Virus record (IMG/VR): IMGVR_UViG_3300045685_000034
Span: 4,507-68,506 of that record
Strand: one strand, 5' to 3'
DNA: 64,000 nucleotides
Source of the DNA: a virus
The notes under the pieces were generated by a model, which searched no databases, was not told where the DNA came from, and saw only the letters and a list, made by a program, of their open reading frames with translations. Shown here one piece after another: positions 14,886-15,044 of the stretch (positions within the stretch are counted from its first letter, which is position 1; every line of letters begins with the position of its first letter). The position numbers were made by a program, and so were the translations under genes.

Positions 14886-15044
14886 ATGGACGATGAATTA
14901 ATTAGTGAAGCTAGAAAGATAGCAATTGACTTTAACGGGGGTGAACAAAAATTAAAGCCAGTTCATTTACAACACAGAATGCGAATTGGAATCAACAGAG
15001 CAACAAAGCTATATGAGCAGTTAAAGAATGAAGGCTTAGTTTAG
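14886..15044 (+). CDS. stand-alone FtsK gamma-like winged-helix protein
   Basis: DELISEARKIA...HLQHRMRIGINRATKLYEQLKNEGLV resembles the FtsK-gamma LQR.LRIGYNRA..L motif; RBS GGAGG. Confidence 0.75.
   Translation: MDDELISEARKIAIDFNGGEQKLKPVHLQHRMRIGINRATKLYEQLKNEGLV

What the first reader, a model, noticed from the sequence alone, without database searches (positions are those of the whole stretch)
14886..15044. Stand-alone FtsK-gamma domain in a phage that also carries an Xer-like recombinase
The 52-aa protein resembles the FtsK gamma winged helix. Established: FtsK-gamma binds KOPS and activates XerD catalysis at dif. Inference: the free domain could activate Xer-type recombination (host dif, or the cassette sites) independent of the divisome, or interfere with host chromosome segregation.
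Basis: partly seen in the sequence, partly recalled or inferred. Interest (0 to 1): 0.6.

Follow-up and report, generated by a model that had tools for sequence, protein, structure and literature searches.

The report
Wingless FtsK-gamma mini-gene, swappable phage cassette
The 52-residue gene is real and descends from the DNA-reading "gamma" domain of the bacterial FtsK pump. It is a stripped-down optional cassette that Enterococcus phages swap in and out of one fixed slot before their packaging genes, and it shows no link to the Xer-like recombinase.

Summary
Observation confirmed. Window 14886-15044 (+) is a 52-aa ORF with a GGAGG ribosome-binding site and terminators on both sides. Its only recognisable relative is the FtsK gamma domain (Pfam E 4.6e-7, 29.9 bits against a 30.6 cut-off; PDB 2J5P and 5DCF).

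It is not a canonical gamma domain:
- It stops where the beta-hairpin wing should begin.
- It has a 4-residue loop insertion.
- It differs at positions shown experimentally to matter. R1289, the key XerD-activating Arg, is His here. Of the KOPS residues, R1300 and E1306 are both Lys here; E1303 is kept as Glu.

The proposed link to the phage's Xer-like recombinase (7739-8749) fails:
- 0 of 4 near-complete relatives that carry the mini-gene have the recombinase.
- 0 of 13 informative recombinase-bearing phage loci have the mini-gene.
- In Enterococcus malodoratus the two genes lie 446 kb apart.

The ORF is one of at least five unrelated mini-ORFs (24-60 aa) that occupy the same slot in the late-operon leader, with the same downstream terminator and mostly the same leader. 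A sister phage with flanks more than 99% identical carries a 24-aa ORF there instead.

Best reading: a dispensable accessory helix-turn-helix (HTH) protein with altered specificity. A host-directed FtsK/Xer mimic is not excluded (about 0.15).

This scan had already noted the same mini-protein on other DNA (e1-1965010). Modest interest.

The parts
14809..14833 (+). Intrinsic terminator that ends the upstream ORF-free RNA region. It is the left border of the cassette slot.
   Evidence: Terminator scan and fold. Conserved in loci both with and without the FtsK-gamma ORF.
14835..14885 (+). Slot leader shared by most cassettes: a hairpin at about 14835-14865, then the ribosome-binding site GGAGG at 14871-14875. 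No sigma-70-like promoter was found.
   Evidence: Nearly invariant across carriers. The same leader precedes unrelated mini-ORFs in L024, L025 and L037. Fold; promoter scan.
14886..15044 (+). The 52-aa wingless FtsK-gamma-like HTH ORF, which is the finding.
15047..15070 (+). Shared downstream terminator. It is the right border of the slot.
   Evidence: The same sequence follows the alternative cassettes.
15083..15161 (-). Antisense small-RNA-like unit: a promoter-like site at 15161-15133 (10 of 12 matches, with TG) and a terminator at 15107-15092. It is a neighbour of the slot, not part of the gene.
   Evidence: It matches the earlier scan note e1-1968903.
15282..15506 (+). A 74-aa phrog_1202 protein of unknown function. 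It follows the slot in nearly every locus where downstream DNA was available; L018 is the exception.
15525..16349 (+). Small terminase subunit (Terminase_2) with its own N-terminal HTH.
13664..14176 (+). A 170-aa late-regulator-like protein (phrog_36 / phrog_1558), upstream of the RNA region.
7739..8749 (+). Xer-like tyrosine recombinase named in the finding. It assorts independently of the FtsK-gamma cassette.

Best explanation
Shown:
- The ORF is a real, translated-looking gene.
- Its product is a minimal three-helix HTH descended from the FtsK gamma domain. It has lost the C-terminal wing, gained a 4-residue insertion in the loop between helices 1 and 2, and changed several residues that give canonical gamma its two known activities.
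- It is not a fixed part of the phage. It is one of at least five unrelated mini-ORF cassettes (24-60 aa, sometimes in tandem or with larger inserts) that occupy one expression slot.
- The slot lies in the late-operon leader, between the RNA region behind the late regulator and the antisense sRNA, phrog_1202 and terS. It is bounded by the RNA-region terminator and a common downstream terminator. Most cassettes also share the same leader and ribosome-binding site.
- The cassette moves among Enterococcus avium-group temperate phages with unrelated packaging modules, and it is unlinked to the Xer-like recombinase.

Inferred:
- The protein is a dispensable accessory factor, made by read-through from the upstream RNA region.
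- It acts in trans through its retained helix 2 - turn - helix 3 face.
- It is most likely a small DNA-binding protein whose specificity has diverged from KOPS.
- Its target is something common to all carrier phages or to the host, rather than the phage recombinase or terminase.
For: Gene and fold:
- ORF, ribosome-binding site and terminators.
- Pfam, PDB and Atlas point only to FtsK-gamma.
- An alignment-guided AlphaFold model has helices at 2-17, 25-32 and 36-49, pLDDT 93.5. It superposes on 2VE9_B (TMq 0.74, rmsd 1.7 A) and 2J5P (TMq 0.71).
- Third-codon-position excess among variable sites: 5/5/14.

Divergence from canonical gamma:
- All 76 canonical short gamma sequences continue at least 15 residues past the phage protein's last residue.
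- None has the 4-residue insertion.
- Arg in 76/76 at the R1289 position (phage His); Tyr or Phe in 76/76 at Y1295 (Ile); Arg in 73/76 at R1300 (Lys); Glu in 75/76 at E1306 (Lys).
- The roles of these residues come from PMC5052618 and PMC2680272.

Cassette nature:
- A roughly 300-nt block (about 14797-15114) is 95-99% identical in most carrier contigs (about 90% in the two most divergent, L016 and L018), while the flanks diverge. Portals in these contigs are only 26-38% identical, and the TerS and TerL families differ.
- Only 8 of 57 informative phrog_1202-bearing loci carry it.
- L023 has flanks at least 99% identical but an 87-nt segment with a 24-aa ORF in the slot.
- L024, L025 and L037 have other mini-ORFs behind the same leader and before the same terminator. 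L018 has two cassettes in tandem.
- Only 1 of 25 species genomes in the genus carries it.

No link to the recombinase.
Against: - No DNA binding, target site or expression was measured.
- The three-helix model leans on an alignment of FtsK-gamma sequences. The single-sequence model gave only two helices and no fold match.
- Fold matches for a 52-residue HTH are not statistically significant.
- A wingless 52-aa HTH may bind DNA poorly on its own.
- Five of six XerD-contact residues are retained, so a protein-binding role is as compatible with the sequence as DNA binding.
- No promoter was found for the cassette, so the timing and level of expression are unknown.
- The 76 comparison sequences were chosen by a canonical-gamma-dominated profile. 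That biases them towards the consensus.
Confidence: 0.55

Rival explanations
1. Host-directed FtsK-gamma mimic. The free mini-domain uses the retained helix 2 - helix 3 face in one of two ways. It could bind host XerD and so activate or titrate Xer recombination at dif without FtsK, as XafT of TLC-phi does. Or it could occupy KOPS-type motifs and disturb FtsK loading and chromosome segregation.
For: - Q29, R33, I34, G35 and N37 match five of the six FtsK residues that contact XerD (Table 1 of PMC5052618).
- A 9-residue peptide from this face suffices for weak activation in E. coli (PMC5052618).
- A phage-borne XerD activator exists as a precedent (XafT, PMC6744903).
- The cassette is 96-98% identical across most phages whose other modules are unrelated. 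That fits a target shared by all of them, such as a host protein.
- The host has XerC, XerD and FtsK.
Against: - His replaces the invariant Arg (R1289) whose loss most reduces XerD activation.
- Two of the three KOPS-recognition positions differ (R1300 is Lys, E1306 is Lys), and the wing is absent (PMC2680272).
- It is only 34% identical to the host's own gamma domain.
- The other occupants of the same slot are unrelated mini-ORFs, so the slot does not point to Xer biology.
Confidence: 0.15
2. One reading: the mini-domain is the activator of the phage's own Xer-like recombinase (7739-8749) at its cassette sites.
For: Both genes lie in this one prophage. The recombinase is Xer-like in domain make-up.
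Against: - 0 of 4 near-complete (91-100%) carrier phages have any homologue of the recombinase, while the same query found it in a positive-control genome.
- 0 of 13 recombinase-bearing loci with the full 10 kb downstream have the mini-gene.
- In E. malodoratus the 98%-identical copies lie 446 kb apart.
- The key Arg is missing.
Confidence: 0.03
3. Packaging helper: a split form of the FtsK_gamma::Terminase_2 small terminase seen in Bacillus phages Sam46 and Sam112. It would help TerS recognise phage DNA.
For: - Where present, the gene lies a short distance upstream of the packaging genes (about 480 nt before terS in the window).
- An N-terminal FtsK_gamma fusion to a Terminase_2 TerS is documented, and that paper notes that separate gamma ORFs occur in phages (PMC8190038).
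- The window's TerS is a Terminase_2 protein.
Against: - The cassette is the same next to non-homologous TerS and TerL types (Terminase_2 of 177 or 274 aa; Terminase_3; Terminase_6N).
- The window's TerS has its own N-terminal HTH.
- L023 has a 99.6%-identical TerS but no gamma cassette.
- Unrelated mini-ORFs fill the same slot.
Confidence: 0.12
4. Decaying fragment: a captured 3' piece of an ftsK-like gene, cut short by a stop codon, that persists only because it sits between conserved slot flanks. It would have no function of its own.
For: - It is truncated exactly before the wing.
- After the TAG, the frame reads a few residues that add about 2.5 bits to the Pfam match.
- One metagenomic variant has a sense codon in place of the stop (P0002).
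- In L019 the ORF is broken at codon 38 by recombination.
- Its distribution is narrow and sporadic.
Against: - There is a third-position excess of substitutions.
- Except for the L019/P0009 form, every carrier copy recovered keeps an intact ORF, start codon and ribosome-binding site, including the 83%-identical L018 form.
- All full-length variants but one (P0002) end at the same residue.
- The post-stop similarity lies in the terminator that non-gamma cassettes also share, so it is probably chance.
Confidence: 0.1

Closest known systems
FtsK/SpoIIIE gamma subdomain (Pfam PF09397; PDB 2J5P, 2VE8/2VE9, 5DCF)
   Same: It is the only detectable homologue. The three-helix HTH core and the helix 2 - turn - helix 3 motif (Q-x-R-x-R-I-G-x-N-R-A) are shared, including five of the six XerD-contacting residues.
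   Different: No translocase motor and no beta-hairpin wing. A 4-residue loop insertion. His for R1289, Ile for Y1295, Lys for R1300 and Lys for E1306. It scores just under the Pfam cut-off.
Stand-alone 'FtsK gamma domain proteins' of phages and Bacillota (63-70 aa Atlas clusters; annotated in Vibrio phages and others)
   Same: Motor-less gamma-type mini-proteins encoded by phages, with unknown function (PMC8190038 states that their role is unknown).
   Different: Those are full domains with the wing and the consensus Arg residues. This one is shorter (52 aa), wingless, divergent, and restricted to a small Enterococcus phage group.
[quoted passage not shown]
   Same: A gamma-type domain associated with the phage packaging module. 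Here the gene lies just upstream of a Terminase_2 terS.
   Different: It is not fused and not co-inherited with any particular terminase. It is dispensable in sister phages, and the TerS here keeps its own HTH.
XafT, the XerD activation factor of the TLC-phi satellite phage (PMC6744903)
   Different: XafT sits on an element that integrates by host XerCD at dif. This is a tailed temperate phage with its own integrase. No XerD binding has been shown here.
Phage morons and cassette slots in hyperplastic regions (for example the boundary-sequence cassettes noted elsewhere in these same phages, e1-5356642)
   Same: An insulated mini-gene between conserved flanks and terminators, exchanged among related phages, with alternative unrelated occupants.
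   Different: No own promoter was detected. The slot lies in the late-operon leader rather than in the early accessory region or at the prophage ends.

Membership tests
FtsK gamma domain (PF09397) | Scores at or above the Pfam gathering cut-off (30.6 bits) | tested here: inconclusive
   The protein alone scores 29.9 bits. The six-frame match scores 30.1 bits, or 32.6 when read through the TAG. Close homologues carry a precomputed PF09397 label.
FtsK gamma domain (PF09397) | Three-helix winged-helix core | tested here: met
   The alignment-guided model has three helices and pLDDT 93.5. It matches 2VE9_B (TMq 0.74) and 2J5P (0.71). Caveat: the model leans on a gamma alignment, and the single-sequence model did not give this fold.
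FtsK gamma domain (PF09397) | C-terminal beta-hairpin wing (G-P-x-x-G-x-K-x-R-x-x-L) | tested here: not met
   The ORF stops at the residue before the wing. All 76 comparison sequences continue at least 15 residues further. All but two of the close variants recovered (P0002, P0009) end at the same place.
FtsK gamma domain (PF09397) | Arg equivalent to E. coli R1289, which forms the salt bridge to XerD E184 and has the largest effect on activation | tested here: not met
   His30 in the phage protein, and His30 is invariant in the aligned phage variants. Arg in 76/76 comparison sequences. Role from PMC5052618.
FtsK gamma domain (PF09397) | KOPS-recognition residues of helix 3 (E. coli R1300, E1303, E1306) | tested here: not met
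   The phage protein has K41, E44 and K47. The comparison set has R in 73/76, D or E in 76/76, and E in 75/76. Roles from PMC2680272.
FtsK gamma domain (PF09397) | Attached to an FtsK/SpoIIIE motor | tested here: not met
   It is a stand-alone 52-aa ORF between two terminators. The host FtsK (825-aa frame) is a separate gene.
FtsK gamma domain (PF09397) | Binds KOPS/SRS DNA and activates XerD | not testable with these tools
   This needs EMSA and recombination assays.
Xer activation factor (functional class; XafT-like) | Carried by an element that relies on host XerCD at dif for integration | tested here: not met
   The prophage has its own 409-aa-frame integrase at its left end, plus the Xer-like gene. 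It is a tailed phage with terminase, portal and lysin.
Xer activation factor (functional class; XafT-like) | Co-inherited with the recombinase it activates | tested here: not met
   0/4 and 0/13 in the two directions; 446 kb apart in E. malodoratus.
Phage accessory cassette (moron-like) | Present or absent between otherwise near-identical phages, with conserved junctions and alternative occupants | tested here: met
   L023 against the window. Five occupant types share the same terminator, and most share the same leader. 8 of 57 loci carry it.
Phage accessory cassette (moron-like) | Own promoter allowing expression from the prophage | tested here: not met
   No sigma-70-like site lies between the upstream terminator and the ATG. 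The scan is simple, so a weak or activator-dependent promoter is not excluded.

The most novel reading that the evidence does not exclude
The wingless mini-gamma is a diffusible modulator of the host FtsK-XerCD machinery. It would either switch on XerD away from the septum or block FtsK from XerD or KOPS. Enterococcus phages would trade it as a plug-in cassette, which would make it a Gram-positive, tailed-phage counterpart of XafT built from FtsK's own domain.
Probability: 0.12. Interest if true: 0.7.

Novelty: new variant of a known kind. Interest (0 to 1): 0.3.

Why it matters
Motor-less FtsK-gamma genes recur in phages, and their role is openly described as unknown (PMC8190038). This case gives two useful handles.

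First, it is a natural minimal version: 52 aa, no wing, and key Arg and Glu residues changed. That separates the fold from the two textbook activities.

Second, natural near-isogenic phages differ only in the slot occupant. That is a ready-made experiment for asking what the cassette does.

It also shows that a gamma gene and an Xer-like recombinase in the same genome should not be read as a system without checking co-inheritance.

The slot itself, with swappable mini-ORFs between the RNA region and the packaging genes, may be a hotspot for small accessory or counter-defence genes in Enterococcus phages.

Tried and rejected
- Single-sequence AlphaFold model: two long helices and no meaningful PDB match. 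Discarded in favour of the alignment-guided model.
- Foldseek against PDB and BFVD with the good model: only non-significant generic winged-helix hits, with FtsK-gamma among them.
- Complex prediction of the E. malodoratus XerD C-terminal domain with the mini-protein: 'no answer' (score 0.00, controls not run). This is not evidence either way.
- megablast and tblastn against GenBank phages with the window DNA and protein: no match.
- phmmer against 1.84 billion representative proteins: only the close cluster plus three distant multi-repeat proteins.
- Rfam on the flanking non-coding DNA: nothing.
- KOPS/SRS motif counts in the prophage: GAAGAAG occurs 16 times on + and 0 on -. All genes are on + and the motif is Glu-Glu codons, so this is uninformative.
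- Pfam and PHROG searches of the alternative slot occupants: all of unknown function, so no common theme.
- The idea that the conserved 300-nt block is a pac/cos site: rejected, because the adjacent terminases are non-homologous and the block is absent from phages with the same terminase.
- The longer 69-86-aa gene calls: rejected. Their N-terminal extensions are the slot leader that other cassettes share, or unrelated upstream sequence.

Full report
**What is there**

Window 14886-15044 (+) is an ATG-initiated 52-codon ORF. It has a GGAGG ribosome-binding site 11-15 nt upstream of the ATG and ends in TAG. Terminator-like hairpins bracket it at 14809-14828 and 15047-15061.

The gene order around it is as follows:

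| Window position | Feature |
|---|---|
| 13664-14176 | late-regulator-like gene (phrog_36) |
| about 14180-14835 | ORF-free, structured region with no Rfam or tRNA hit |
| 14886-15044 | the ORF |
| 15161-15083 (-) | antisense promoter and terminator pair |
| 15282-15506 | 74-aa phrog_1202 gene |
| 15525-16349 | terS (Terminase_2, with its own N-terminal HTH) |
| 16342-17790 | terL |

The record is an IMG/VR virus record of 69 kb. It holds two prophage-like regions and three tyrosine recombinases. The host is in the Enterococcus avium group: E. malodoratus ATCC 43197 carries a 98%-identical copy of the gene.

**Is it FtsK-gamma?**

Every sequence method points to FtsK-gamma and to nothing else:
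- Pfam PF09397: E 4.6e-7, 29.9 bits, a hair under the 30.6 cut-off, covering profile positions 3-49 of 63.
- PDB phmmer hits only 5DCF, 2J5P and 2IUS.
- It is 34% identical to the gamma domain of the E. malodoratus FtsK.
- The nearest Atlas clusters are 63-70-aa stand-alone gamma proteins.

With an alignment of 79 sequences, AlphaFold gives a confident three-helix HTH (pLDDT 93.5). It superposes on 2VE9_B and 2J5P at TM about 0.7. That model leans on the gamma alignment, and the single-sequence model did not find the fold.

The gene looks coding. Across 15 distinct copies, the 24 variable sites fall 5/5/14 on codon positions 1/2/3.

**How it differs from canonical gamma**

The alignment and column counts against 76 canonical short gamma sequences show the following:

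| Feature (E. coli numbering) | 76 canonical sequences | Phage protein |
|---|---|---|
| Residues after the phage C-terminus (the wing) | at least 15 in all 76 | none; the protein ends at G-L-V |
| Insertion in the helix 1 - helix 2 loop | none | 4 residues |
| R1289 | Arg 76/76 | His30 |
| Y1295 | Tyr or Phe 76/76 | Ile36 |
| R1300 | Arg 73/76 | Lys41 |
| E1303 | Asp 73/76, Glu 3/76 | Glu44 |
| E1306 | Glu 75/76 | Lys47 |

R1289 makes the salt bridge to XerD E184, and its mutation has the largest effect on activation (PMC5052618). R1300, E1303 and E1306 are the residues mutated to make FtsK 'KOPS-blind' (PMC2680272).

The other five XerD-contact residues in Table 1 of PMC5052618 (Q1288, R1292, I1293, G1294, N1296) are retained. 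The E. coli activating nonapeptide RQFRIGYNR corresponds to HRMRIGINR here.

So the fold and the central turn are kept, while the characterised specificity residues and the wing are not.

**The recombinase link**

ORF 7739-8749 is a genuine Xer-like tyrosine recombinase. It has SAM_4/SAM_1 plus Phage_integrase domains, and its best NCBIfam matches (XerA, XerC, XerD) are below their cut-offs. It does not travel with the mini-gene:
- Four carrier phage records estimated 91-100% complete have no homologue at E <= 1e-3. The same query found a 98% copy in the E. malodoratus genome, which serves as a positive control.
- In that genome the recombinase copy (C1:713 kb) and the mini-gene (C1:1,159 kb) lie 446 kb apart.
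- Of 19 recombinase-bearing viral loci, 13 have the full 10 kb downstream, and none has the mini-gene. That includes L091 and L102, which share the late regulator at 99-100%.

**What the gene really is: a slot cassette**

A roughly 300-nt block (about 14797-15114) is 95-99% identical in most carrier contigs, and about 90% in the two most divergent, L016 and L018. Everything around it diverges. Portals are only 26-38% identical, and the TerS and TerL families differ: Terminase_2 of 177 or 274 aa, Terminase_3, Terminase_6N.

Starting instead from the downstream phrog_1202 gene, only 8 of 57 informative loci carry the mini-gene.

L023 is the clearest case. It is at least 99% identical to the window from the late regulator to 14837, and again from 15043 through terS. 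Between those points it has an 87-nt segment with a 24-aa ORF.

Other loci keep the same leader and ribosome-binding site and the same terminator, but hold different occupants:
- a 60-aa phrog_24047 ORF (L024, with related forms in L053, L064 and L066);
- a 50-aa ORF (L025);
- a 25-aa ORF (14 loci);
- two cassettes in tandem (L018: the 60-aa ORF plus the gamma ORF);
- larger inserts (L016, L069).

None of the alternative occupants has a known function. In L019 the gamma ORF is cut at codon 38 by a recombination joint. Only 1 of 25 species genomes of the genus has the gene.

The gene is therefore an optional, recently exchanged accessory cassette in a fixed expression slot. This also explains its near-invariant nucleotide sequence.

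No sigma-70-type promoter lies between the upstream terminator and the ATG. Expression by read-through from the upstream RNA region is inferred, not shown.

**Mechanism**

Shown: it is a dispensable cassette, it is independent of both the recombinase and the terminase type, and it is a gamma-derived wingless HTH with changed specificity residues.

Inferred: it is an accessory trans-acting factor that works through the helix 2 - turn - helix 3 face. It is most likely a small DNA-binding protein with non-KOPS specificity. Its target is shared by all carriers, meaning either the host or conserved phage DNA.

Rival explanations, with my estimated probabilities:

| Rival | Probability | Main point for | Main point against |
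|---|---|---|---|
| Host FtsK/Xer mimic | about 0.15 | five of six XerD contacts kept; XafT precedent (PMC6744903) | His30, K41/K47 and the missing wing |
| TerS helper, a split form of the Sam46/Sam112 gamma::Terminase_2 fusion (PMC8190038) | about 0.12 | lies just upstream of a Terminase_2 terS | L023 has the same TerS but no cassette; non-homologous terminases sit beside the same cassette |
| Decaying fragment | about 0.10 | truncated exactly before the wing; sporadic distribution | codon-position bias and intact ORFs |
| Activator of the phage's own recombinase | about 0.03 | both genes are in this prophage | no co-occurrence in either direction |

A complex prediction with host XerD returned no verdict and is not used as evidence.

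**Comparison and novelty**

Stand-alone gamma genes in phages are known and annotated, and their function is unknown (PMC8190038). This scan has met them repeatedly, including this same mini-protein on other DNA.

What is new here:
- the wingless, residue-shifted minimal form;
- the demonstration that it is a swappable slot cassette;
- the negative result on the recombinase link.

Verdict: an ordinary-to-modest finding and a new variant of a known kind. Interest is about 0.3.

Noticed in passing
window 14809-15070, with L018, L023, L024, L025, L037 and L069 (slot coordinates): An expression slot in the late-operon leader holds at least five unrelated mini-ORFs in different Enterococcus phages: 24, 25, 50, 52 and 60 aa. 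Tandem cassettes and larger inserts also occur. All sit before the same terminator, and most share the same leader.
   Followed up: partly
window 14180-14835 (+): An ORF-free, GC-richer, structured stretch built of conserved blocks (14243-14334, 14338-14433, 14519-14549, 14629-14733, 14731-14805) that are shuffled between phages. It has no Rfam or tRNA hit. An earlier scan note (e1-5356648) reads it as an array of tRNA-like RNAs in a ROOL-type slot.
   Followed up: partly
window 15083-15161 (-), and a second minus-strand terminator at 15195-15172: A minus-strand promoter-like site (TTGAAA, 17 nt, TATATT, with TG) plus a terminator. This would give a short antisense RNA between the cassette and phrog_1202. 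It matches the antisense sRNA cassette noted on other DNA (e1-1968903).
   Followed up: partly
window 15045-15075; protein P0002: After the TAG, the same frame reads P-S-P-R-E-A-V. This faintly resembles the gamma wing motif K-P-R-E-V-L and adds about 2.5 bits to the Pfam match. One metagenomic variant has a sense codon instead of the stop and runs to 85 aa. The DNA here is the shared slot terminator, so the likeness may be chance.
   Followed up: partly
L019:2117-2317: The gamma ORF is recombined at codon 38 to unrelated sequence and is followed directly by a different terS and terL (Terminase_6N). This is a natural breakpoint inside the gene.
   Followed up: partly
window 14943 (codon 19): The window's copy has Gly19 (GGT). 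The other copies have Val there (Phe in L016).
   Followed up: no
window 39161-39234 and 39972-40043: A tRNA-Met, then a tRNA-like gene that ARAGORN reads with a two-base anticodon ('ca') and Rfam scores at 38.6 bits. They lie between the lysin of prophage 1 and the integrase-bearing second prophage region.
   Followed up: no
record G000: C1:1659-2252 (upstream of the window), window 8243-8704 and 45124-45678: The 69-kb 'virus record' has three tyrosine recombinases, and the window holds two phage-like regions in tandem. The record is probably two adjacent prophages rather than one phage.
   Followed up: partly
protein P0010 (metagenomic, 473 aa): Seven tandem repeats of about 62 aa each weakly match residues 17-36 of the mini-protein (V-Q-I-Q-H-H-L-R-x-G-N). 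It is an odd repeat protein of unknown origin.
   Followed up: no
window 1-39000: GAAGAAG, the Lactococcus KOPS core, occurs 16 times on the + strand and never on the - strand. This is confounded by gene orientation and Glu codons.
   Followed up: partly
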